This document shows positions 2,704 to 60,580 of a stretch of DNA of 64,000 bases, piece after piece; positions within the stretch are counted from its first letter, which is position 1, and every line of letters begins with the position of its first letter. This DNA comes from Shigella phage SHSML-52-1, in sequence record KX130865. One strand, 5' to 3'. The position numbers and the translations under genes are program-made. A model generated the notes under the pieces. The model saw only the letters and a list, made by a program, of their open reading frames with translations, was not told where the DNA came from and did not search any database.

Positions 2704-5415
2704 ATGAAAGAATTTTACTTAACGGTTGAACAGATTGGTGATTCAATTTTTGAACGTTACATCGATTCTAATGGCCGTGAACGTACTCGAGAAGTAGAAT
2801 ATAAACCATCACTGTTTGCTCATTGTCCAGAAAGTCAGGCTACGAAATATTTCGATATCTACGGTAAGCCGTGTACTCGTAAGTTGTTCGCTAATATGCG
2901 TGATGCTTCCCAATGGATTAAACGTATGGAAGATATCGGACTTGAAGCACTTGGCATGGACGATTTCAAATTGGCGTATTTGTCTGACACTTATAACTAT
3001 GAAATCAAATACGACCATACAAAAATTCGTGTGGCTAACTTCGACATCGAAGTAACATCTCCGGACGGGTTCCCTGAGCCGTCACAAGCAAAACATCCGA
3101 TTGATGCTATCACCCATTATGACTCAATTGACGACAGGTTCTACGTATTTGATCTATTGAATTCTCCATATGGTAATGTAGAAGAATGGTCTATCGAAAT
3201 TGCGGCTAAGCTTCAAGAACAAGGTGGTGATGAAGTTCCATCTGAAATTATCGATAAAATCATTTATATGCCGTTCGATAACGAAAAAGAATTGTTGATG
3301 GAATATCTCAACTTCTGGCAACAGAAAACTCCTGTCATTTTGACTGGATGGAACGTTGAGTCATTTGATATTCCATATGTGTATAACCGAATCAAGAATA
3401 TTTTTGGCGAATCTACTGCGAAACGTTTATCGCCACATCGTAAAACTCGTGTTAAAGTTATCGAAAACATGTATGGTTCTCGTGAAATCATTACATTGTT
3501 CGGTATATCTGTTCTTGATTACATTGACCTTTACAAAAAATTCTCTTTTACCAATCAACCGTCGTATTCTCTGGATTACATTTCAGAATTTGAATTGAAC
3601 GTTGGTAAACTGAAATATGACGGCCCTATTTCTAAGCTTCGTGAAAGCAATCACCAACGATATATTTCTTATAACATTATCGACGTGTATCGTGTATTGC
3701 AAATTGATGCTAAACGCCAGTTCATTAACTTGAGCTTGGACATGGGTTATTATGCTAAGATACAGATTCAATCTGTGTTTAGCCCAATTAAAACATGGGA
3801 TGCTATTATTTTTAATAGCCTTAAAGAGCAGAACAAGGTGATTCCGCAAGGTCGTTCTCACCCGGTTCAACCTTATCCTGGCGCTTTTGTTAAGGAACCT
3901 ATTCCAAATCGATACAAATATGTAATGAGTTTCGACCTTACATCTCTGTATCCAAGTATTATTCGCCAAGTGAATATTAGCCCGGAAACAATAGCAGGAA
4001 CGTTTAAAGTAGCTCCACTGCATGATTATATTAACGCAATCGCTGATCGTCCTTCAGATGTGTACAGTTGCTCTCCTAACGGCATGATGTATTATAAAGA
4101 CCGTGATGGTGTAGTTCCAACTGAAATCACTAAGGTCTTTAATCAGCGTAAAGAACATAAAGGTTACATGCTTGCAGCTCAACGTAATGGTGAAATAATT
4201 AAAGAGGCATTGCATAATCCTAATCTTTCTGTTGATGAACCATTAGATGTTGATTATCGTTTCGACTTCACTGATGAGATTAAAGAAAAGATTAAAAAGT
4301 TGTCTGCTAAATCTCTTAATGAAATGTTGTTTAGAGCTCAACGTACTGAAGTTGCAGGTATGACTGCACAAATTAACCGTAAATTGCTTATCAACTCACT
4401 TTATGGTGCACTTGGAAACGTTTGGTTCCGTTATTACGATTTGCGTAATGCAACTGCAATCACAACATTTGGTCAAATGGCTTTACAGTGGATTGAACGT
4501 AAAGTTAATGAATACCTGAATGAAGTTTGTGGTACAGAAGGCGAAGCTTTCGTTCTTTATGGTGATACAGACTCTATTTACGTATCTGCTGATAAAATTA
4601 TCGATAAGGTTGGTGAATCTAAATTCCGTGATACCAACCATTGGGTAGACTTCTTAGATAAGTTCGCTCGTGAACGTATGGAACCTGCTATTGATAGAGG
4701 TTTCCGTGAAATGTGTGAATACATGAACAATAAACAACACTTAATGTTCATGGACCGAGAAGCTATCGCTGGTCCTCCGCTCGGTTCTAAAGGTATTGGT
4801 GGATTCTGGACTGGTAAGAAACGTTATGCATTAAACGTGTGGGATATGGAAGGTACTCGTTACGCTGAGCCTAAACTCAAAATCATGGGTCTCGAAACAC
4901 AGAAATCTTCGACCCCTAAAGCAGTACAGAAAGCTCTTAAAGAATGTATTCGTCGTATGCTTCAAGAAGGTGAAGAATCATTACAAGAATATTTTAAAGA
5001 GTTTGAAAAAGAATTCCGTCAATTGAATTATATTAGCATCGCGTCGGTATCTTCTGCGAATAACATTGCTAAATATGACGTTGGTGGATTCCCTGGTCCT
5101 AAATGTCCGTTCCATATTCGTGGAATTCTGACGTATAACCGGGCTATCAAAGGTAATATTGATGCTCCACAAGTTGTAGAAGGTGAAAAAGTATATGTTC
5201 TGCCTTTACGTGAAGGAAACCCATTCGGTGATAAATGTATCGCATGGCCTTCTGGCACTGAAATCACAGATTTAATTAAAGACGACGTACTTCATTGGAT
5301 GGACTACACTGTTCTCCTTGAGAAGACATTTATTAAACCACTTGAAGGATTCACATCAGCAGCGAAACTCGATTACGAGAAGAAAGCATCTCTGTTCGAT
5401 ATGTTCGATTTTTGA
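2704..5415 (+). CDS. 43: family B DNA polymerase gp43
   Basis: 903 aa; exonuclease motifs (FDIEV, YNIIDV), polymerase motifs (SLYPSII, YGDTDS); N-terminus matches the RB69-type polymerase as recalled. Confidence 0.97.
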   Translation: MKEFYLTVEQIGDSIFERYIDSNGRERTREVEYKPSLFAHCPESQATKYFDIYGKPCTRKLFANMRDASQWIKRMEDIGLEALGMDDFKLAYLSDTYNYEIKYDHTKIRVANFDIEVTSPDGFPEPSQAKHPIDAITHYDSIDDRFYVFDLLNSPYGNVEEWSIEIAAKLQEQGGDEVPSEIIDKIIYMPFDNEKELLMEYLNFWQQKTPVILTGWNVESFDIPYVYNRIKNIFGESTAKRLSPHRKTRVKVIENMYGSREIITLFGISVLDYIDLYKKFSFTNQPSYSLDYISEFELNVGKLKYDGPISKLRESNHQRYISYNIIDVYRVLQIDAKRQFINLSLDMGYYAKIQIQSVFSPIKTWDAIIFNSLKEQNKVIPQGRSHPVQPYPGAFVKEPIPNRYKYVMSFDLTSLYPSIIRQVNISPETIAGTFKVAPLHDYINAIADRPSDVYSCSPNGMMYYKDRDGVVPTEITKVFNQRKEHKGYMLAAQRNGEIIKEALHNPNLSVDEPLDVDYRFDFTDEIKEKIKKLSAKSLNEMLFRAQRTEVAGMTAQINRKLLINSLYGALGNVWFRYYDLRNATAITTFGQMALQWIERKVNEYLNEVCGTEGEAFVLYGDTDSIYVSADKIIDKVGESKFRDTNHWVDFLDKFARERMEPAIDRGFREMCEYMNNKQHLMFMDREAIAGPPLGSKGIGGFWTGKKRYALNVWDMEGTRYAEPKLKIMGLETQKSSTPKAVQKALKECIRRMLQEGEESLQEYFKEFEKEFRQLNYISIASVSSANNIAKYDVGGFPGPKCPFHIRGILTYNRAIKGNIDAPQVVEGEKVYVLPLREGNPFGDKCIAWPSGTEITDLIKDDVLHWMDYTVLLEKTFIKPLEGFTSAAKLDYEKKASLFDMFDF

Positions 5416-53400: not shown

Positions 53401-54328
53401 AATCCGCACGGATAATACGAAGACGCGATTTCTGGTCGCCTTCCCATATACGCCATAAACTATTTGCAGCATCAAAAACAAAAAACGCGTCAGAGTCATT
53501 TCTGCCTTCAGCAATATGAGTCCCGACTTCACCAATAGACGTTGTATCATCAAATGTTTTAACAATTGTATGATACAGTGGGTTTAATCTATCTAAATCG
53601 ACTAGGCTGATTATATCACCATTGTTAGCATTACGTGGAAGTGTAATGTTGATTGGTGCTGCACTAGTAAAACGACGAACGATAAAATCATTTGCTTGTG
53701 CTTGATATGGTGTCGCAGGTGTAACAGTGATTGATTCTTTACCATAATCGGTAATATACATCTGCCACAAACGATTACTAAACACAAACAATAGTTGTGA
53801 ACGTGGGCGCGTCATTAAAACCGTACGAACTTGTTCACCTCTAAAGTTTAAAATACTCTGTACAGACGCGTTAATCTGTACTTTAACTGTCCCGGTTCGT
53901 CCACCAATATCAGCCAAAACAACAGTATCACCATCAACTGGAGTATTTGGCAATGTAAAAACCATATCATTGCCGGCACCAGTGTTAACCGAAATCGATT
54001 CACCTGAAGAAAGTTGATAAGTCCCAGAAGCGACAGTTATCCATTGTGCATCAGTACGAACTGCACGCCATTGTAAAAGGTTAAATGCCCCGGAAGGAGA
54101 CACGATATCATTTATTGCTTGATATAAACGGTTGTCATAAAGAACAACAAATCCTTTGTTATATCCACGCGTAGAATCATATACTTGAACGGTGTTTTCT
54201 TGTACCAGGAAGTCAACGTTTACGCCATCAGTACCTACTGTACGGTCGGCTAATGCTACGTTAACAATCTTGTCGCCACCGGCGTCCAGACCGTCTTCGG
54301 CTCTGAACTTACGTTTGATGTCGGCCAT
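50453..54328 (-). CDS. 34: long tail fiber proximal subunit gp34
   Basis: 1291 aa; N-terminus MADIKRKFRAEDGLDAGGDKIVNVALADR…; repeated shaft motifs (…IATQAE.NAGTD…). Confidence 0.9.
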   Translation of the reverse strand: MADIKRKFRAEDGLDAGGDKIVNVALADRTVGTDGVNVDFLVQENTVQVYDSTRGYNKGFVVLYDNRLYQAINDIVSPSGAFNLLQWRAVRTDAQWITVASGTYQLSSGESISVNTGAGNDMVFTLPNTPVDGDTVVLADIGGRTGTVKVQINASVQSILNFRGEQVRTVLMTRPRSQLLFVFSNRLWQMYITDYGKESITVTPATPYQAQANDFIVRRFTSAAPINITLPRNANNGDIISLVDLDRLNPLYHTIVKTFDDTTSIGEVGTHIAEGRNDSDAFFVFDAANSLWRIWEGDQKSRLRIIRADSNIRPNEEVLIFGTNNATTGTINLTLPTGILSGDTVKISMNYMRKGQTVKIKAAEGDTIASTVALLQFPKRSEYPPDAQWVSVTELEFNGTTSYVPVLELAYIEDTVAGTRYWVVQQNVPTVERVDAGTDATRARLGVIALATQAQANVDLENTPAKEVAITPETLANRTATEARRGIAKIATTAQVNQNSTAAFVDDTIVTPKKLNERTATETRRGLAEIATQAETDAGLDDTTIITPKKLQARQGSETLSGIVKYVSTTSATPAETRGAAGTNVYNKTVNNLTISPKALDQYKATYAQQGAVILAVDSEVIAGQSQAGYSHAVVTPETLHKKTSTDGRIGLIEIATQAETNAGTDYTRAVTPKTLNDRKATEGLSGIAELATQVEFDTGTDDTRISTPLKIKTHFDSSDRTSVNSDSGLIEEGTLWNHYTLDISKANETQRGTLRVATQAESNAGTLDDVLITPKKLLGTKSTETSEGVIKVATQAETVTGTSANTAVSPKNLKWIVQNEPTWAATTAIRGFVKTSSGSITFVGDDTQGSTQDLNLYEKNSYAISPYELNRVLANYLPLKAKAADANLLDGLDSSQFIRRDIAQTVNGSLTLTQQTNLSAPLVSSSTATFGGSVSANSTLTISNTGTATRLIFEKGPQTGTNPAQTMTIRVWGNQFGGGSDTTRSTVFEVGDETSNHFYSQRNKDGNIAFSINGTVMPININASGLMNVNGVATFGRSVTANGEFISKSANAFRAISGDYGFFIRNDAANTYFMLTASGDQTGGFNGLRPLAINNASGQVTIGEGLIIAKGATINSGGLTVNSRIRSQGSKTSDLYTRAPTSDTVGFWSIDINDSATYNQFPGYFKMVEKTNEVTGLPYLERGEEVKSPGTLTQFGNTLDSLYQDWITYPTTPEARTTRWTRTWQKTKNSWSSFVQVFDGGNPPQPSDIGALPSDNATIGNLTIRDFLRIGNVRIIPDPVNKSVKFEWIE

Positions 54329-54358
54329 TCGTTTTTCCTTTATTGTTTCAATAATACT

Positions 54359-54366
54359 TATTTATA
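54359..54366 (-). promoter_or_regulatory. late promoter TATAAATA for the tail-fiber operon (gene 34)
   Basis: Exact late consensus on the minus strand about 31 nt upstream of the gene 34 ATG. Confidence 0.55.
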
Positions 54367-54369
54367 CCA

Positions 54370-54399
54370 GTTTACGCTTTCAAATGAGTGTGTTACTAT
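54370..54399 (+). promoter_or_regulatory. early promoter for the rnh-dsbA-33-59 cluster (-35 GTTTAC 54370-54375, -10 TACTAT 54394-54399)
   Basis: 18-bp spacer; divergent from the gene 34 late promoter. Confidence 0.4.
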
Positions 54400-54431
54400 A
54401 GACAAGTTGACTAACTGAACAAGAGGTTCAT

Positions 54432-55349
54432 ATGGATTTAGAAATGATGTTGGATGAAGATTACAAAGAAGGTATTGCACTTGCCGACTTTAGTAACATT
54501 GCGTTGGCAGCCGCATTAAACAACTTTGAAGATGGCGATAAAATTACTGTTCCAATGGTTCGCCATGTAATATTGAATTCAATTCGTAAAAACGTAGTGA
54601 TGTTCCGTAAGCAAGGCTATACAAAATTTGTATTGTGTATGGATAATGCTACTTCAGGTTATTGGCGACGTGACTTTGCTTACTATTACAAGAAAAATCG
54701 CAAAACCGATCGTGAAGCTTCAAAGTGGGATTGGGAAGGATATTTTACTGCACTCCATCAAGTTGTTGATGAGATTAAGAAATACATGCCATACGTTGTA
54801 ATGGATATTGACAAGTATGAAGCGGATGACCATATTGGTGTATTAACTAAATATTTGTCATTAGCTGGTCATAAGGTATGTATTGTTGCATCAGATGGTG
54901 ACTTTACACAATTACACAAATATCCTAACGTTAAACAGTGGTCGCCACCACAGAAAAAATGGGTTAAAATTAAGAATGGTTCTGCTGAAATTGATTGCAT
55001 GACTAAAATTCTTAAAGGCGACCGTAAGGATGGTGTTGCATCTGTTCGAGTTCGTGGTGACTTCTGGTTTACTCGAGTTGAAGGTGAACGAACTCCAAGC
55101 ATGAAAACATCAATTATTGAAGCAATTGCTAACGACCGTTCTCAAGCTGAAGTATTATTAAGTGCAGAAGAATATAAACGGTATCAAGAAAATTTGGTTC
55201 TCATTGATTTTGATTATATCCCTGATAATATTGCTTCAACCATTATAGAGTATTATAACTCATATAAACAACAACCTAAAGGCAAGATTTATTCATATTT
55301 TGTAAAATCTGGTCTTTCTAAATTAACAAGTGTAATTAATGAATTCTGA
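54432..55349 (+). CDS. rnh: RNase H (5'-3' exonuclease / flap endonuclease)
   Basis: 305 aa; MDLEMMLDEDYKEGIALADFSNIALAAA… and overall match to recalled T4 RNase H. Confidence 0.85.
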   Translation: MDLEMMLDEDYKEGIALADFSNIALAAALNNFEDGDKITVPMVRHVILNSIRKNVVMFRKQGYTKFVLCMDNATSGYWRRDFAYYYKKNRKTDREASKWDWEGYFTALHQVVDEIKKYMPYVVMDIDKYEADDHIGVLTKYLSLAGHKVCIVASDGDFTQLHKYPNVKQWSPPQKKWVKIKNGSAEIDCMTKILKGDRKDGVASVRVRGDFWFTRVEGERTPSMKTSIIEAIANDRSQAEVLLSAEEYKRYQENLVLIDFDYIPDNIASTIIEYYNSYKQQPKGKIYSYFVKSGLSKLTSVINEF

Positions 55350-55356
55350 GGTAAAC

Positions 55357-55626
55357 ATGGCTAAGAAAGAAGCAGTTGAATTTAATCAAGATGTGCATGG
55401 TGAAGAACTGGCTAAACTAGTCAAGGAAGCTTCCGATAACAAACTTAAAATTTCTGGTTATAATGAACTGATTAAAGACATTCGTACTCGTGCTAAAGAA
55501 GAGCTTGGCGTCGATGGAAAAATGTTTAATCGTTTGTTAGCTCTTTATCATAAAGACGCACGTGACCAATTTGAAGCTGAAAACGAAGAGGTAGTCGAGC
55601 TTTATGACACAGTTTTCACTAAGTGA
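55357..55626 (+). CDS. dsbA: dsDNA-binding protein DsbA (late transcription)
   Basis: ATG 55357 gives an 89-aa protein MAKKEAVEF…ISGYNELIKDIRTRAKEELGVDGKMFNRLLALYHKD… matching T4 DsbA; track ORF starts 55339. Confidence 0.8.
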   Translation: MAKKEAVEFNQDVHGEELAKLVKEASDNKLKISGYNELIKDIRTRAKEELGVDGKMFNRLLALYHKDARDQFEAENEEVVELYDTVFTK

Positions 55627-55942
55627 TATTAAACCGGTTGATGAGACCGGTTTATCTGAACAAGAATTAACAGTAAAACACGATAAAGATGATATCGCTA
55701 AATTGCTTGACCGACAAGAAAATGGATTCATTATCGAATCCATGGTTGAAAAATTTGGTATGTCTTATTTAGAAGCAACAACTGCTTTCTTGGAAGAAAA
55801 TTCTATTCCAGAAACACAATTTGCTAAATTTATTCCTACAGGAATTGTTGAAAAAATTACAAGCGAAGCAATTGACGAAAATATGCTTCGCCCATCAGTT
55901 GCTCGTGGTGAAAAAACTAATACGTTAGATTTCTTATTATGA
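55604..55942 (+). CDS. 33: late transcription co-activator gp33
   Basis: 112 aa; MTQFSLSDIKPVDETGLSEQEL…FLEENSIPETQFAKFIP…NTLDFLL matches T4 gp33. Confidence 0.9.
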   Translation: MTQFSLSDIKPVDETGLSEQELTVKHDKDDIAKLLDRQENGFIIESMVEKFGMSYLEATTAFLEENSIPETQFAKFIPTGIVEKITSEAIDENMLRPSVARGEKTNTLDFLL

Positions 55943-56622
55943 AATACGTTGTGTATAAAACTACCAATAAAATAAATGGTAAAATTTATATAGGCGTACA
56001 CAAAAAACATAAAGAGAAAGATTGGTATATTGGATCAGGCCGCGCTATATTAGCGGCCAAAGCTAAATATGGACTAAAAAATTTTTATACCGAAATTCTT
56101 TATGAATATGATAATGACAAGGACGCCTATAAAAAAGAAGCAGAATTGGTTAACGAAGATTTTGTTTTGCGAGATGATACTTATAACTTAGTTCCCGGTG
56201 GTAAAGGTGGTCCTGGTAAAAAACAAAGTGATGAAGCTAAAAGGTCTATTTCACTTTCTAAATTAGGTAAACCTAGATCTGAAGAGACTAAGGCTAAAGT
56301 ATCTAAAACAAGACTAGAAAGAAAAATACCGTCACCTAATAAGGGTAAGAAACTATCTGAAGCTCACAAATTGGCCTTGAGTAAAGTCCGAAAAGGGCGA
56401 AAAACGAATAAGCCGATGCCTGATTCAACCAAAGAAGCTCTTAGAATAGCAAATTCAAAGCCGCATTCTAAAGAAAGAACTATTAAAAAACAAAAACCTA
56501 TAATTATTGATGGTACAAAATACGCCTCGTGTAAAGAAGTTTCAAATGTTTTTAATATTTCTGCGTCTTTAGTTACATATAGACTTAAATCTTCAAAATG
56601 GTCCGGATGGAAATATGATTAA
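55939..56622 (+). CDS. GIY-YIG homing endonuclease (Seg-like)
   Basis: 227 aa; N-terminal KYVVYKTTNKINGKIYIGVH…YIGSG…NLVPGG GIY-YIG domain; Lys-rich NUMOD-like repeats and a C-terminal DNA-binding region. Confidence 0.8.
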   Translation: MKYVVYKTTNKINGKIYIGVHKKHKEKDWYIGSGRAILAAKAKYGLKNFYTEILYEYDNDKDAYKKEAELVNEDFVLRDDTYNLVPGGKGGPGKKQSDEAKRSISLSKLGKPRSEETKAKVSKTRLERKIPSPNKGKKLSEAHKLALSKVRKGRKTNKPMPDSTKEALRIANSKPHSKERTIKKQKPIIIDGTKYASCKEVSNVFNISASLVTYRLKSSKWSGWKYD

Positions 56623-57268
56623 AATACGCATGCCTCCTGATGGAGAACGTTATATTAATGGAAAATCGGTATATAAACTATACTTGATGTGCAAAAACCA
56701 TTTTGGTGGTCGGTATGACGTAATCAAATATAACTGGTGCATGCGTGTTTCGGATAATGCGTATCAAAAACGCCGAGATAAATATTTCTTTGAGAAACTA
56801 GCAGAGAAATATAAGTTAAAGGAACTCACCTTGATATTCATCAGTAACTTAGTTGCTAACCAAGATGCATGGATTGGTGAGATATCAGACGCTGATGCAT
56901 TAGTTTTCTATAGGGAATATATTGGACGACTCAAACAAGCCAAGGAGACGTTTGCTGAAGATGTACGTAACATCTACTATTTCAGTAAGAAAGTGGAAGT
57001 TAGTGCGCTTCAAGAGATATTTGATTATAATAATAAAGTTCAGTCGAGCTACATATTTAAATTGCTACAAAGCAATATAATTTCATTTGAAACCTTCTTG
57101 TTGTTGGATTCATTCTTGAATATTATAGATAAGCATGACGAACTTACTGACAATTTAGTCTGGCAAAATTATTCTACCAAATTAAAGGCATATCGAAAAA
57201 TACTTCAAATCGATGGAAATGCTGCTAAGAAATTGTTCATAGAAACAATCAAATCATGTAAGTATTAA
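56615..57268 (+). CDS. 59: helicase loader gp59
   Basis: 217 aa; MIKIRMPPDGERYINGKSVYKLYLM…NWCMRVSDNAYQKRRDKYFF… matches T4 gp59. Confidence 0.93.
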   Translation: MIKIRMPPDGERYINGKSVYKLYLMCKNHFGGRYDVIKYNWCMRVSDNAYQKRRDKYFFEKLAEKYKLKELTLIFISNLVANQDAWIGEISDADALVFYREYIGRLKQAKETFAEDVRNIYYFSKKVEVSALQEIFDYNNKVQSSYIFKLLQSNIISFETFLLLDSFLNIIDKHDELTDNLVWQNYSTKLKAYRKILQIDGNAAKKLFIETIKSCKY

Positions 57269-57292
57269 GCTTTATTTCTTGTGTGTTAAAAT
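57267..57292 (+). promoter_or_regulatory. putative middle promoter for gene 32 (AAGCTTTA 57267-57274, -10 TAAAAT 57287-57292)
   Basis: MotA-box-like element with 12-bp spacing. Confidence 0.4.
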
Positions 57293-57297
57293 TACTT

Positions 57298-57305
57298 TAT
57301 AAATA
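57298..57305 (+). promoter_or_regulatory. late promoter TATAAATA upstream of gene 32
   Basis: Exact late consensus about 97 nt upstream of the gene 32 ATG. Confidence 0.45.
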
Positions 57306-57315
57306 AATCATACCA

Positions 57316-57339
57316 GCTACGAGGTATAAGTGTCGTAGC
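57316..57339 (+). promoter_or_regulatory. stem-loop in gene 32 leader (GCTACGA…TCGTAGC)
   Basis: 7-bp perfect inverted repeat with 10-nt loop at the 5' end of the leader, where T4 has a pseudoknot. Confidence 0.35.
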
Positions 57340-57351
57340 AACCAACTGTAA

Positions 57352-57402
57352 ATAAATTAAATAATCTAAATAATCTAAATAATCTAAATAAAGGTAAATA
57401 TA
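57352..57402 (+). repeat. A/U-rich tandem repeats (ATAATCTAA x3 plus degenerate copies) adjacent to the gene 32 start; putative gp32 translational operator
   Basis: Three perfect 9-bp units at 57361-57387 flanked by related copies; unstructured A/U-rich tract before the RBS. Confidence 0.55.
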
Positions 57403-58305
57403 ATGTTTAAACGTAAATCTACTGCTGACCTCGCTGCTCAAATGGCTAAACTGAACGGTAACAAAGGTTTCTCTTCAGAAGATAAAGGCGAATGGAAGCT
57501 GAAGCTAGATGCATCAGGTAATGGTCAAGCGGTAATTCGTTTCCTGCCAGCAAAAACTGATGACGCACTACCATTTGCAATTCTTGTTAACCACGGTTTC
57601 AAGAAAAATGGTAAATGGTATATTGAAAATTGCTCTTCTACACATGGTGATTACGACTCTTGTCCTGTATGTCAGTACATTAGTAAAAATGACCTGTACA
57701 ATACCAACAAAACTGAATATTCTCAACTGAAACGTAAAACTTCTTATTGGGCTAATATTCTGGTTGTTAAAGACCCTCAAGCTCCAGATAACGAAGGTAA
57801 AGTATTTAAATATCGTTTCGGTAAAAAGATTTGGGACAAAATCAATGCAATGATTGCAGTTGATACCGAAATGGGTGAAACTCCGGTTGATGTTACTTGT
57901 CCGTTTGAAGGTGCCAACTTCGTTCTGAAAGCTAAGCAGGTTTCCGGTTTTAGCAACTATGACGAATCTAAATTCTTGGGTCAATCTGAAATTCCTCGTA
58001 TTAATGACGAAGCATTCCAGAAAGAACTATATGACCAGATGGTAGACCTTACTACTTTGACGGCTAAAGACCAGTTCAAGTCCTTTGAAAAATTAAATGA
58101 ATCTTTCGCTAAGGTTCTTGGTACTGCCGCTCTTGGTGGTGCAGCAGCCGCAGCAGCTTCTGTTGCAGATAAAGTTGCTTCTGACCTTGACGATTTTGAT
58201 AAAGACATGGAAGCCTTTAGTTCTGCAAAAACTGAAGATGACTTCATGAGCTCTACCTCATCCTCTGATGATGGCGACCTCGATGACCTGTTAGCTGGTC
58301 TATAA
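57403..58305 (+). CDS. 32: single-stranded DNA-binding protein gp32
   Basis: 300 aa; [36 protein letters not shown]…; zinc-site Cys/His; acidic C-terminus; matches T4 gp32. Confidence 0.97.
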
Positions 58306-58311
58306 TAAATT

Positions 58312-58335
58312 GGGAGACTTCGGTCTCCCTTTTGA
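58312..58335 (+). terminator. rho-independent terminator after gene 32 (GGGAGAC-UUCG-GUCUCCC + U-run)
   Basis: Perfect 7-bp stem, UUCG loop, followed by TTTTGAG. Confidence 0.75.
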
Positions 58336-58359
58336 GTATCTGTAAATTGCCGAAAAAGT

Positions 58360-58405
58360 TGTTTACTTCTTCCCTTGTTTACTTCTTCCCTGGATGTGTT
58401 AGTAT
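58360..58405 (+). promoter_or_regulatory. early promoter with tandemly duplicated -35 region (TGTTTACTTCTTCCCT x2) and -10 TAGTAT
   Basis: 16-bp unit at 58360-58375 and 58376-58391; second GTTTAC is 17 bp from the -10 at 58400-58405. Confidence 0.5.
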
Positions 58406-58434
58406 AGACCTATTAACAACATGAGGAAACCAAA

Positions 58435-58821
58435 ATGGAAATCGGAAAATCTTATATCATCAACCCTTTATTTAAAGACGACTTTGCTAACGAGTGCCGT
58501 TGCAATACAATAATGCTAAATTTAATAGAGAAGCACGGACCTAGTTTTGTTGTAGATGAAATGGAAAGTGATGATTGTGCTGGTGAATGTGTGGTACGTG
58601 TAACTATGGAAGATGGCACTGAATACATGGCGAGTGGCCCACTTGAGACGTATTTTGAGATTTACTCTGAAGAATTCAAATACTTTACTGAGGTAGATTT
58701 AGTAAAACCTCAACCTACTAACGAAGGTATAACTTTAGGTGTAACAAAAATCCATTGTATCGTAGATGAAACCAACGTCGACGAAATCATCGAACTTTTG
58801 CAAAAAACTTTTAAAAAGTAG
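58435..58821 (+). CDS. hypothetical acidic protein (128 aa)
   Basis: Track ORF with RBS TGAGGAAACC. Confidence 0.5.
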   Translation: MEIGKSYIINPLFKDDFANECRCNTIMLNLIEKHGPSFVVDEMESDDCAGECVVRVTMEDGTEYMASGPLETYFEIYSEEFKYFTEVDLVKPQPTNEGITLGVTKIHCIVDETNVDEIIELLQKTFKK

Positions 58822-59135: not shown

Positions 59136-59723
59136 ATGCTTAAATTAGTATTCGCATGCGCACCATCTAAAACAGTTGATGATAAACTGGAATATGCTTT
59201 TGGATTAGGTGATGGACTTCCATGGAAGCATATCAAACAAGATATGAGTAACTTTGTTGCTCGCACTAAAAACACTGTAATGGTTATGGGTGCTAAGACT
59301 TTTGCATCATTACCTCGTCTACTACCAGATCGTACTCATGTGGTTGTCACTGATATGGCCAGAAAACTGCCTAGGACTAAAACTGATGAACTTGCACGGT
59401 TCTATATCACCCAATCTGAATTTATTACATTGGTAACAGGTGGTGAAATTAACTTGTTTAGCCCTGCAACTGATGTACCGTTTAAACTTTCTACCGAACA
59501 TGTTGATGTATCTGTTATCGGCGGTCCTGCTCTACTTAAACAAGCATTGCCTTATGCCGATGAAATTGTGATGACTAAAATCATTAAGAAATGTCGTGTT
59601 AATTCCGATGTTCAACTTGATAAAGATTTCATCCAAGATATTATGCTTCAACGTTCTATGGTAGAATCTCATTACTACAGAATCGATGAACTCACCGAAA
59701 TTACTGAGAGCGTATATAAATGA
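59136..59723 (+). CDS. frd: dihydrofolate reductase
   Basis: 195 aa; LGDGLPW and VIGGPALL DHFR motifs; matches recalled T4 Frd. Confidence 0.9.
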   Translation: MLKLVFACAPSKTVDDKLEYAFGLGDGLPWKHIKQDMSNFVARTKNTVMVMGAKTFASLPRLLPDRTHVVVTDMARKLPRTKTDELARFYITQSEFITLVTGGEINLFSPATDVPFKLSTEHVDVSVIGGPALLKQALPYADEIVMTKIIKKCRVNSDVQLDKDFIQDIMLQRSMVESHYYRIDELTEITESVYK

Positions 59724-60580
59724 AACAATACCAATACCTGATTAATGATATCCTAGAAAATGGCTACGAAACAGACGACCGTACAGGCACAGGAACAATT
59801 GCCCTGTTCGGAACTAAATTACATTGGGACCTGACTAAAGGATTCCCTGCAGTAACAACTAAGAAATTAGCATGGAAAGCTTGTATTGCCGAGTTACTGT
59901 GGTTCATGTCTGGTTCTACTAATGTTAATGAATTACGTCTTCGTACTCATGGTAGTCTAATTGAAGGTAAAACTATTTGGGACGACAACTATGAAAATCA
60001 GGCAAAAGACCTTGGATATCATAGCGGCGAACTTGGTCCTATTTATGGTAAGCAATGGCGTGATTTCGGTGGTGTGGACCAATTAGTTGAAACAATCGAC
60101 CGTATTAAAAAATTACCAACTGATCGTCGTCAAATTGTTTCTGCATGGAACCCAGCCGAAATTGACCAAATGGCTCTTCCTCCTTGTCATATGTTCTATC
60201 AATTTAATGTGCGTAATGGACATCTTGATTTACAATGGTATCAACGCAGTGTAGATGTTTTCTTGGGCCTGCCGTTCAACATTGCCTCGTACGCTGCCTT
60301 GACGCATATTGTGGCTAAGATGTGTAATCTTATCCCAGGTGATTTAGTGTTCTCAGGCGGCAACACGCATATCTACAGCAATCATGTAGAACAATGCAAA
60401 GAAGTTCTTCGTCGTGAACCTAAAGAGTTATGTTCTCTTGAAATTAATTGGCCTAGTAATTTTGAGAATTGGCCTACAAAAATCCAAATGGACTGGGTTA
60501 CTGGAACGATGACACATTCTGATTTCGTTCTTAAAAATTACGAATCTCATCCAGCTATCAAAGCTAAAATGGCGGTATAA
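59720..60580 (+). CDS. td: thymidylate synthase (uninterrupted)
   Basis: 286 aa contiguous ORF with active-site PPCH and DRR motifs; no intron interrupting the reading frame. Confidence 0.93.
   Translation: MKQYQYLINDILENGYETDDRTGTGTIALFGTKLHWDLTKGFPAVTTKKLAWKACIAELLWFMSGSTNVNELRLRTHGSLIEGKTIWDDNYENQAKDLGYHSGELGPIYGKQWRDFGGVDQLVETIDRIKKLPTDRRQIVSAWNPAEIDQMALPPCHMFYQFNVRNGHLDLQWYQRSVDVFLGLPFNIASYAALTHIVAKMCNLIPGDLVFSGGNTHIYSNHVEQCKEVLRREPKELCSLEINWPSNFENWPTKIQMDWVTGTMTHSDFVLKNYESHPAIKAKMAV

What the first reader, a model, noticed from the sequence alone, without database searches (positions are those of the whole stretch)
55939..56622. GIY-YIG homing endonuclease inserted between genes 33 and 59
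A free-standing Seg-like endonuclease gene sits inside the conserved rnh-dsbA-33-59-32 cluster, overlapping both neighbours. It is a mobile element that may drive marker exclusion against related phages. By contrast td is uninterrupted.
Basis: partly seen in the sequence, partly recalled or inferred. Interest (0 to 1): 0.45.

Follow-up and report, generated by a model that had tools for sequence, protein, structure and literature searches.

The report
Seg-type homing endonuclease beside gene 59
An intact selfish DNA-cutting gene sits exactly at the junction of two conserved replication and transcription genes of an RB69-like (T4-type) phage; it is an ordinary, uncharacterised member of a well-known class, but related genomes show clear traces of how it spreads.

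Summary
Window 55939-56622 (+) is an intact 227-aa ORF. It overlaps gene 33 by 4 nt (ATGA) and gene 59 by 8 nt (ATGATTAA). td (59720-60580) is uninterrupted.

The protein is an I-TevI-like GIY-YIG endonuclease: TIGR01453 scores 74.5 bits against a cut-off of 56, and the C-terminal I-TevI DNA-binding domain is present. The best fold matches are the two I-TevI domains, and it is 43% identical to T4 SegC over 120 aa.

The window is a Mosigvirus. The 676-bp insert is present in 27 of about 150 Mosigvirus records, in several species that also have insert-less members. Orthologues (46-57% aa) occupy the same 33|59 junction in Dhakavirus, Karamvirus, Serratia phage CHI14 and metagenomic contigs.

The ORF is under purifying selection (dN/dS about 0.1). 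All 27 carriers share a gene 59 haplotype (nt 60-92, gp59 N28/G31), which only 15 of 121 insert-less records have (p = 3e-19). Karamvirus shows the same pattern independently: 20 fixed differences confined to nt 24-84 of gene 59. This looks like homing with one-sided co-conversion, and it points to a target in the first 100 nt or so of gene 59. That target is inferred, not shown.

Verdict: a new, uncharacterised member of the Seg class, of modest interest.

The parts
55939..56622 (+). seg-like free-standing homing endonuclease ORF (227 aa)
   Evidence: ORF list and sequence. TIGR01453 scores 74.5 bits against a 56.05 cut-off. PHROG 314 matches at 4.5e-55. The AF2 model has pLDDT 83.
55939..56214 (+). 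N-terminal GIY-YIG catalytic domain (aa 1 to about 92): VVY...IYIG, with invariant H21, Y30, G32, G34, E67, Y82 and N83
   Evidence: Alignment A2. Profile match to I-TevI 1MK0/1LN0 over residues 5-91. Foldseek 1MK0: prob 1.00, target TM-score 0.67. 43% identity to T4 SegC over 120 aa, E = 1.45e-26.
56215..56484 (+). Basic helical linker with NUMOD3-like repeats (aa about 93-182)
   Evidence: Pfam NUMOD3 matches weakly: 18 bits against a 20.4 cut-off, aa 93-122. The model shows helices 98-108, 115-128, 141-151 and 162-173.
56485..56619 (+). C-terminal I-TevI-type helix-turn-helix DNA-binding domain (aa 183-226)
   Evidence: Pfam PF20987 matches at 1.9e-11, 44.1 bits against a cut-off of 27. PDB 1I3J matches by sequence and by fold.
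55939..55942 (+). ATGA overlap: gene 33 stop and seg start. In insert-less genomes the same ATG is the gene 59 start.
56615..56622 (+). ATGATTAA overlap: the regenerated gene 59 start, with the seg stop codon TAA lying in gene 59 codons 2-3
56641..56706 (+). Insert-linked haplotype in the 5' end of gene 59: T56674, A56696, C56698 and GG56705-6, giving gp59 N28/G31. This is the presumed co-conversion tract and the immune version of the target.
   Evidence: Database-wide 32-mer counts are 42, 92 and 14 records. The Karamvirus replicate covers nt 24-84.
55604..55942 (+). Gene 33 (late transcription co-activator), the left homology arm. It has no insert-linked variants.
56615..57268 (+). Gene 59 (helicase loader), the right homology arm and inferred target gene

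Best explanation
The ORF encodes a functional free-standing (Seg-type) GIY-YIG homing endonuclease with the I-TevI layout: an N-terminal catalytic domain, a basic NUMOD3-like linker and a C-terminal helix-turn-helix DNA-binding domain.

It is a cassette with no promoter of its own, placed exactly at the ATGA overlap of genes 33 and 59. It takes over the start codon that serves gene 59 in insert-less phages. Its 3' end carries a fresh gene 59 start (ATGATTAA). It is therefore probably co-transcribed with rnh-dsbA-33 and translated by coupling or re-initiation after gene 33 (inferred).

In a mixed infection with an insert-less relative, the enzyme is inferred to cut the relative's DNA in the first 100 nt or so of gene 59. 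The critical bases are most likely around nt 76-92, which is window-equivalent 56690-56706. Double-strand-break repair from the carrier genome then copies the stretch of gene 59 between the break and the junction, and in most cases the endonuclease gene as well.

This is 'intronless homing' with local marker exclusion. The carrier is protected by its own gene 59 allele (N28/G31 and a synonymous change).

Shown here: identity, fold, intactness, purifying selection, sporadic distribution, conserved insertion site and a linked one-sided tract in two genera. Inferred: cleavage activity, the position of the target, and the mode of expression.
For: Identity and fold. TIGR01453 scores above its cut-off across the full length. 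PF20987 scores above its cut-off. Foldseek's top hits are the I-TevI catalytic domain (1MK0) and DNA-binding domain (1I3J), both at prob 1.00. The closest T4 protein is SegC, at 43% over 120 aa.

Function retained. All 10 copies read in full are intact. dN/dS is 0.09-0.15 at dS up to 0.24. Y6, Y17, G19, H21, E67 and N83 are invariant across 26 homologues.

Mobility.
- The insert is in 27 of about 150 Mosigvirus records.
- It is present and absent within the same species: SSE1 vs ST0 in JS09, and WFbE185 vs mar005P1.
- Divergence of seg is uncoupled from that of its flanks. For window vs SA35RD, seg dS is 0.014 while gene 59 dS is 0.256.
- Orthologues at 46-57% aa sit at the same 33|59 junction in IME540 (Dhakavirus), Serratia phage CHI14, Karamvirus and metagenomic contigs.

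Co-conversion footprint.
- All 27 carriers have the T56674/A56696/C56698 32-mer, against 15 of 121 insert-less records (Fisher p = 3.4e-19).
- There is no linkage in gene 33 and none from 56794 onwards.
- One backbone occurs in three states: mar005P1, mobillu and WFbE185.
- Independent replicate: the Karamvirus carriers L047/L048 differ from CC31-type phages by 20 fixed differences. These are confined to gene 59 nt 24-84, inside otherwise 97-100% identical DNA. In that tract the carriers resemble another carrier lineage, L043.

Expression. The nearest late-promoter motifs (TATAAATA) are at 54359 (-) and 57298 (+). Promoter-less seg cassettes and ATGA coupling are described for T4 segC, segF, segG and mobE (PMC2988022).
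Against: No cleavage or inheritance experiment exists for this protein, and none was found in the literature searched.

No residue aligns with the canonical catalytic Arg27 of I-TevI. D28 occupies that column, and R35 of this protein is not conserved. The Pfam GIY-YIG models fall below threshold for this sequence: SegE_GIY-YIG scores 22.6 against a cut-off of 25.

The linked tract could be hitch-hiking from the original donor rather than marking the target.

Twenty-nine insert-less records carry all or part of the carrier haplotype. This fits co-conversion without gene transfer, but it also fits loss of the gene or an ancestral polymorphism.

T4 Seg enzymes are reported to cut hundreds of bp from their genes (PMC2988022). 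The tract here is shorter, at most about 92 nt.

The haplotype tables rest on 24 Mosigvirus loci read in full plus exact-word counts, not on all 150 genomes.
Confidence: 0.8

Rival explanations
1. It is a homing endonuclease, but its recognition site spans the 33/59 junction itself, as with intron-encoded enzymes. Immunity then comes from the insertion splitting the site. The gene 59 haplotype is only donor DNA dragged along by resection.
For: The protein has the I-TevI layout, and I-TevI-type enzymes bind at the insertion site and cut within 25 bp of it (PMC2988022). The junction sequence is invariant in all Mosigvirus loci read, so it would make a good conserved target. The insertion site is conserved to the nucleotide across genera.
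Against: Co-conversion is strictly one-sided in two genera and ends at a similar place: nt 92 in Mosigvirus and nt 84 in Karamvirus. A break at the junction should give tracts on both sides with variable ends. Insert-less genomes carrying the carrier haplotype persist (15 plus 14 records). That is easier to explain if the haplotype itself confers resistance.
Confidence: 0.22
2. The gene is an immobile, domesticated or merely tolerated remnant. It persists by descent and ordinary recombination, for example because deleting it would remove the start context of gene 59. The linked haplotype is simple linkage by descent.
For: The cassette supplies gene 59's start codon and upstream sequence, so imprecise deletion would damage gene 59. 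No activity data exist. The canonical Arg27 is not alignable. One copy (AV116) has a frameshift.
Against: dN/dS of about 0.1 over the whole ORF, including the DNA-binding domain, shows selection on the protein. The gene occurs on several species backbones whose flanks are unlinked beyond about 180 bp. In Karamvirus a 60-nt tract at 67-70% identity sits inside 100% identical flanks and resembles a different carrier lineage. That requires import from a diverged donor at exactly this place.
Confidence: 0.08
3. The protein is chiefly a weapon or defence nuclease in phage-phage competition, or it acts on host DNA. It would not be a self-propagating homing element.
For: GIY-YIG nucleases include non-homing enzymes such as T4 endonuclease II (PMC1564403). 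Marker exclusion benefits the carrier's neighbouring alleles.
Against: The full-length match is to the intron/Seg endonuclease subfamily, with its sequence-specific DNA-binding domain. The conserved insertion site and the adjacent conversion tract are what self-propagation predicts.
Confidence: 0.05

Closest known systems
T4 SegC (free-standing GIY-YIG endonuclease between 5.1 and 5.3)
   Same: It is the closest T4 protein: 43% identity over 120 aa, E = 1.45e-26. It has the same variant catalytic motif, IY(V/I)GVHK...Y.GSG...KKYG...EAE.V...TYN..GG. It is also a promoter-less cassette that overlaps its upstream gene (PMC2988022).
   Different: It lies at a different genomic site and has a different target. 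The annotated T4 SegC is only 140 aa and lacks the I-TevI-type C-terminal domain in frame.
T4 SegG (formerly 32.1), between genes 59 and 32, which cuts gene 32 of T2
   Same: It is a free-standing Seg gene bordering the same gene 59. It cuts inside a neighbouring conserved replication gene and causes co-conversion and marker exclusion (PMC2988022).
   Different: It sits on the other side of gene 59 and shows no significant sequence similarity to this protein. It is absent from this window, where the 59/32 spacer is 134 bp. Its cleavage site is reported to be far from the gene, whereas the tract here is at most about 92 nt.
I-TevI (td intron endonuclease of T4)
   Same: Both domains match by fold and by profile: the catalytic domain to 1MK0/1LN0 and the DNA-binding domain to 1I3J. 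The protein belongs to the same NCBIfam subfamily, TIGR01453.
   Different: This gene is not in an intron. There is no equivalent of the helix that carries Arg27: the model has a loop at aa 24-34 containing the invariant Y-x-G-S-G. No zinc finger was detected.
SegH of RB3 and related phages (for example PP01)
   Same: GenBank annotators named the Shf125875 copy 'SegH-like'. Identity is about 34% over 98% of the length.
   Different: PP01 segH is only about 34% identical and sits at a different place in its genome. From my own knowledge, SegH replaces mobC in the nrd region (Sandegren et al. 2005, cited in PMC2988022). It is not an orthologue.

Membership tests
GIY-YIG nuclease superfamily | Bipartite GIY ... 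YIG motif on two N-terminal beta strands | tested here: met
   The motif reads V4-V5-Y6 ... I16-Y17-I18-G19. Y6, Y17 and G19 are invariant in 26 homologues, and the model has strands at 2-10 and 16-23.
GIY-YIG nuclease superfamily | Catalytic Arg on the first helix (I-TevI R27) | tested here: inconclusive
   In the profile alignment I-TevI R27 falls in an insertion relative to this family, and by eye D28 occupies that place. R35 is present here but not conserved. T4 SegC, listed as active, has the same feature.
GIY-YIG nuclease superfamily | Catalytic Glu (I-TevI E75) and Asn (N90) | tested here: met
   E67 and N83 are invariant. Y82-N83 align exactly with I-TevI Y89-N90, and E67 aligns within one column of E75.
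GIY-YIG nuclease superfamily | GIY-YIG fold | tested here: met
   The Foldseek top hit is 1MK0, the I-TevI catalytic domain: prob 1.00, target TM-score 0.67, 99 aligned columns, although E is only 4.6e-3. Domain pLDDT is 84-93.
Pfam SegE_GIY-YIG (PF19835) / GIY-YIG (PF01541) | Score above the curated gathering threshold | tested here: not met
   PF19835 scores 22.6 bits against a cut-off of 25, and PF01541 is not reported. Orthologues such as P0003 and P0011-15 carry both in the precomputed hits.
I-TevI-like modular homing endonucleases (NCBIfam TIGR01453) | Full-length match above the curated cut-off, plus the C-terminal I-TevI DNA-binding domain | tested here: met
   TIGR01453 scores 74.5 bits against 56.05, covering aa 4-226 and profile positions 3-212 of 215. 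PF20987 scores 44.1 bits against 27.
Free-standing (Seg) homing endonuclease genes of T4-like phages | Located between intact genes, not in an intron or intein | tested here: met
   Genes 33 and 59 are complete on both sides. Insert-less relatives have 33 and 59 directly abutting.
Free-standing (Seg) homing endonuclease genes of T4-like phages | Sporadic presence among close relatives at one conserved site | tested here: met
   The insert is in 27 of about 150 Mosigvirus records and 1 of about 33 Karamvirus records. It occupies the same junction in at least 4 genera.
Free-standing (Seg) homing endonuclease genes of T4-like phages | Co-conversion of flanking markers next to the gene | tested here: met
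   This is a population-level footprint only: complete linkage to a gene 59 tract in two genera.
Free-standing (Seg) homing endonuclease genes of T4-like phages | Site-specific double-strand cleavage of the insert-less allele, with resistance of the carrier allele | not testable with these tools
   This needs an in vitro cleavage assay.
Free-standing (Seg) homing endonuclease genes of T4-like phages | Preferential, endonuclease-dependent inheritance in mixed infections | not testable with these tools
   This needs phage crosses.

The most novel reading that the evidence does not exclude
This Seg lineage targets codons 26-31 or so of the helicase-loader gene 59, and the arms race with its target has forced amino-acid replacements there (Q28N and N31G in Mosigvirus). 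The element is also a 'start-codon-capturing' cassette. Its ORF is fused to the first three codons of gene 59, which co-vary with the cognate gene 59 (MIK/MIK, and MIR/MIR in one lineage). It regenerates the gene 59 start at its 3' end. This lets it insert without damage into a junction that has no intergenic DNA. Its catalytic and DNA-binding modules can be exchanged between lineages: one pair is 100% identical over 155 aa next to a divergent C-terminus.
Probability: 0.4. Interest if true: 0.45.

Novelty: new member of a known kind. Interest (0 to 1): 0.3.

Why it matters
It adds a Seg lineage with a defined, conserved insertion site (the 33|59 junction) and a narrow predicted target, gene 59 nt 60-100 or so. 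That makes cleavage and marker-exclusion experiments simple to design in RB69-like phages, which are widely used for phage therapy and replication biochemistry.

It shows that a selfish nuclease is probably responsible for a two-residue polymorphism in the helicase loader gp59.

It also warns that local gene trees around genes 33, 59 and 32 in T4-like phages are shaped by homing, since in some genera gene 59 is bracketed by two different endonuclease genes.

It does not change how homing endonucleases are understood.

Tried and rejected
- **Decayed pseudogene.** Rejected because the ORF is intact in all 10 copies read in full, dN/dS is about 0.1 and the catalytic Tyr, Glu and Asn are invariant. 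Only AV116 has a frameshift.
- **Own late promoter.** There is no TATAAATA within or just upstream of the ORF. The sigma-70-type scan gave only weak matches close to the shuffle expectation, 22 against 15.4 ± 4.1.
- **Regulatory RNA hairpin over the start codon.** A stem that includes the AUG exists at the 33/seg junction, but its z-score is only -1.2 and it is also present in insert-less genomes. I do not count it as evidence.
- **Rfam.** Nothing relevant in 54000-58600.
- **Relationship to T4 SegG, the other endonuclease next to gene 59.** No significant similarity.
- **Single-sequence search of solved structures.** It found only the DNA-binding domain. The catalytic domain needed a profile and a fold search.
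- **IMG/VR scan for more Mosigvirus loci.** It returned only one close relative, so GenBank phage records were used instead.
- **My first sample of 10 insert-less loci.** It suggested near-perfect separation of haplotypes. Database-wide word counts corrected this: 15 insert-less records carry the carrier haplotype and 14 carry a hybrid.
- **Literature.** No paper describing an endonuclease at the 33/59 junction was found.
- **Two calls failed** because a search term was too short.

Full report
**1. What is in the sequence**

The window is a Mosigvirus (RB69-like T-even phage). The locus is 99.4-99.9% identical to Escherichia phages 55 and TH12.

On the + strand the genes run as follows:
- rnh, 54432-55349
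- dsbA, 55339-55626
- gene 33, 55604-55942
- the ORF in question, 55939-56622
- gene 59, 56615-57268
- gene 32, 57403-58305
- frd.2-like and DUF5417 ORFs, then frd
- td, 59720-60580
- nrdA

The ORF has 227 codons. It overlaps gene 33 by 4 nt (ATGA) and gene 59 by 8 nt (ATGATTAA). td is one 286-aa ORF covering the whole thymidylate synthase profile.

**2. What the protein is**

Sequence matches:
- NCBIfam TIGR01453 'group I intron endonuclease' matches the full length at 74.5 bits, against a cut-off of 56.05.
- Pfam finds the I-TevI DNA-binding domain at aa 183-226 (1.9e-11, above threshold).
- Pfam also gives sub-threshold hits to SegE_GIY-YIG (22.6 against 25 bits) and NUMOD3.
- PHROG 314 'homing endonuclease' matches at 4.5e-55.

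An AlphaFold model built on 26 homologues has mean pLDDT 83. It shows a beta-beta-alpha-beta-alpha N-terminal domain, a helical linker and a small C-terminal domain. Its two best PDB matches are the catalytic domain of I-TevI (1MK0) and the DNA-binding domain of I-TevI (1I3J), both at probability 1.00.

Across 26 homologues Y6, Y17, G19, H21, Y30, G32, G34, E67, Y82 and N83 are invariant. In the profile alignment to I-TevI, Y82-N83 align with Y89-N90 and E67 lies within one column of E75. I-TevI Arg27 falls in an insertion that has no counterpart here.

T4 SegC is the closest T4 protein, at 43% over 120 aa, and it has the same motif. The Edgell/Gibb/Belfort review lists it as an active endonuclease (PMC2988022). 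I therefore read the missing Arg as a trait of this subfamily, not as decay. Which residue replaces it remains unresolved.

**3. Insertion anatomy**

Insert-less Mosigvirus genomes read ...TTATTATGATTAAAATACG... Here the gene 33 stop (TGA) overlaps the gene 59 start (ATG). The window has 676 extra bp at exactly this point.

The endonuclease ORF uses the ATG that serves gene 59 in empty-site genomes. The end of the insert supplies a new ATGATTAA, which is both the gene 59 start and, one frame over, the endonuclease stop codon.

In orthologues from other genera the ORF begins ATGATTAAR (MIK), the same as the cognate gp59. In contig L049 both begin ATGATTCGTC (MIR). So an 8-10-nt copy of the gene 59 start flanks the insert on each side. 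The window copy has lost ATT from the left repeat.

No late promoter motif lies near the ORF, and the hairpin over the start codon is not significant. Expression as part of the upstream transcript, with coupled translation, is an inference by analogy with the promoter-less T4 cassettes segC, segF, segG and mobE (PMC2988022).

**4. Distribution**

In 50,697 phage records the gene is found at 94% identity or more in 27 records, all Mosigvirus and all at this site. About 120 further Mosigvirus records have 33 and 59 abutting.

Carriers belong to several species that also have insert-less members: SSE1 vs ST0, and WFbE185 vs mar005P1.

Orthologues of 46-57% aa identity sit at the same junction in:
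- Dhakavirus IME540;
- Serratia phage CHI14, which is L014;
- a Karamvirus backbone, L047/L048, and Enterobacter phage KMB20;
- other metagenomic contigs.

Only 1 of about 33 Karamvirus records has it.

**5. Selection and mosaicism**

All 10 Mosigvirus copies read in full are intact. Pairwise dN/dS is 0.09-0.15 at dS up to 0.24.

Divergence of the endonuclease gene is uncoupled from that of its flanks. For window vs SA35RD, seg dS is 0.014 and gene 59 dS is 0.256. For window vs SSE1 the values are 0.21 and 0.07. One record, AV116, has a 1-bp insertion that separates the two domains.

**6. Footprint of homing**

I compared 10 carriers with 14 insert-less Mosigvirus loci. No site in gene 33 is linked to the insert. 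A cluster in the first 92 nt of gene 59 is linked: T/C at 56674, A/C at 56696, C/A at 56698 and GG/AA at 56705-6. The last four change gp59 Q28 to N and N31 to G. From 56794 onward there is no linkage.

Exact 32-mer searches extend this to the whole database:

| Haplotype (32-mer at 56669-56700) | Records | Composition |
|---|---|---|
| Carrier type | 42 | all 27 carriers plus 15 insert-less |
| Empty-site type | 92 | insert-less |
| Hybrid (LF82 type) | 14 | insert-less |

Fisher's exact test on 27/0 against 15/106 gives p = 3.4e-19.

One backbone occurs in three states: mar005P1 (no insert, empty-site allele), mobillu (no insert, carrier allele) and WFbE185 (insert).

The pattern repeats independently in Karamvirus. 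L047/L048 (insert) and CC31-type L008-L010 (no insert) are 97-100% identical over 700 nt to the left of the junction, and 100% identical from gene 59 nt 91 to about nt 330. They differ at 20 fixed sites confined to nt 24-84. At 15 of these 20 sites the carriers match another carrier lineage, L043.

**7. Interpretation**

A one-sided tract that begins at the insert and ends at nt 84-92 of gene 59 in two genera is what double-strand-break repair predicts if the break lies in gene 59 at about that distance. The DNA between the break and the insertion point must be replaced for the gene to be copied, and replacement beyond the break depends on resection.

Repair events that do not reach the junction would produce insert-less genomes with the carrier allele, and these are observed.

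I therefore place the target in the first 100 nt or so of gene 59, with the critical bases most likely around nt 76-92. That is the region where the Mosigvirus differences, the LF82 hybrid and the end of the Karamvirus tract intersect. This is inference.

The main rival is a target spanning the junction, with the tract hitch-hiking from the donor. Only cleavage mapping can exclude it.

**8. Comparison with what is known, and novelty**

This is a free-standing Seg-type GIY-YIG homing endonuclease gene, a class defined in T4 (segA-G).

T4 itself has nothing between 33 and 59. It carries the unrelated segG on the other side of gene 59, and SegG cuts gene 32 (PMC2988022; no similarity). SegG-like ORFs occur in T4-type loci and, together with the present family, in IME540 and L045, so gene 59 there is bracketed by two endonuclease genes.

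GenBank annotators already label this gene 'homing endonuclease' or 'Seg-like'. I found no study of it.

It is a new, uncharacterised member of a known kind. The co-conversion footprint, the captured start codon and the module swap between P0003 and P0012 are neat but consistent with established homing biology. Interest is modest.

Noticed in passing
window 57349-57391: A 9-nt tandem repeat, TAAATAATC x 4.8, lies in the 59/32 intergenic leader just upstream of gene 32 and next to a late-promoter motif at 57298. Copy number varies among Mosigvirus loci. It may be part of the gene 32 translational operator (from my own knowledge of T4). There was no Rfam hit.
   Followed up: partly
L054 (phage AV116), nt 308 of the seg ORF: A 1-bp insertion (C) shifts the reading frame after about residue 102 and separates the catalytic domain from the DNA-binding domain. 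GenBank annotates only the 3' part as hypothetical. It is either a decaying copy or a sequencing error.
   Followed up: partly
L003:3845-4462 (IME540), L045:3846-4511, L006:3656-4288, L013:3765-4289: SegG-like ORFs occupy the 59/32 junction. In IME540 and L045 gene 59 is flanked on both sides by different homing endonuclease genes. The longest ATG-initiated reading frame in the L013 copy is 36 aa shorter at the N-terminus than in L006; I did not check why.
   Followed up: partly
P0003 (L043:2501-3196) vs P0012 (L047:2501-3100): Two orthologues are 100% identical over aa 1-155 (catalytic domain plus linker) but have different C-terminal DNA-binding regions, with a 32-aa deletion and low identity. 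This looks like a module exchange that could retarget the enzyme.
   Followed up: partly
L049:2501-2510 and 3090-3099; all carrier loci: The first three codons of the endonuclease ORF copy those of the cognate gene 59 (MIK, and MIR in L049 with 10 identical nt). How the left repeat stays in step with gene 59 is unexplained.
   Followed up: partly
L042:697-1292 (T4 80196-80791): The tblastn match of the window protein in T4 runs through segC into the 5.3 region. T4 segC plus 5.3 may therefore be the remains of a longer Seg ORF.
   Followed up: no
L018:3001-3110 (IMG/VR copy of Enterobacter phage PG7): Gene 59 has a frameshift about 55 nt from its start, and the translation runs into stop codons. 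This is probably an assembly error.
   Followed up: no
L050, L051, L052 (G2285, F2, AV111), window-equivalent 55909: Three insert-less genomes with the carrier-type gene 59 allele share a private C at 55909 in gene 33, 33 nt upstream of the empty site. They may form a single lineage. The F2 record is labelled Tequatrovirus, although its locus is Mosigvirus-like.
   Followed up: no
window 55903-55943: A predicted stem-loop pairs CUCGUGGUG with the UUAUUAUGA that contains the seg start codon, which is the gene 59 start in insert-less genomes. Its z-score is only -1.2, so it is not significant.
   Followed up: yes
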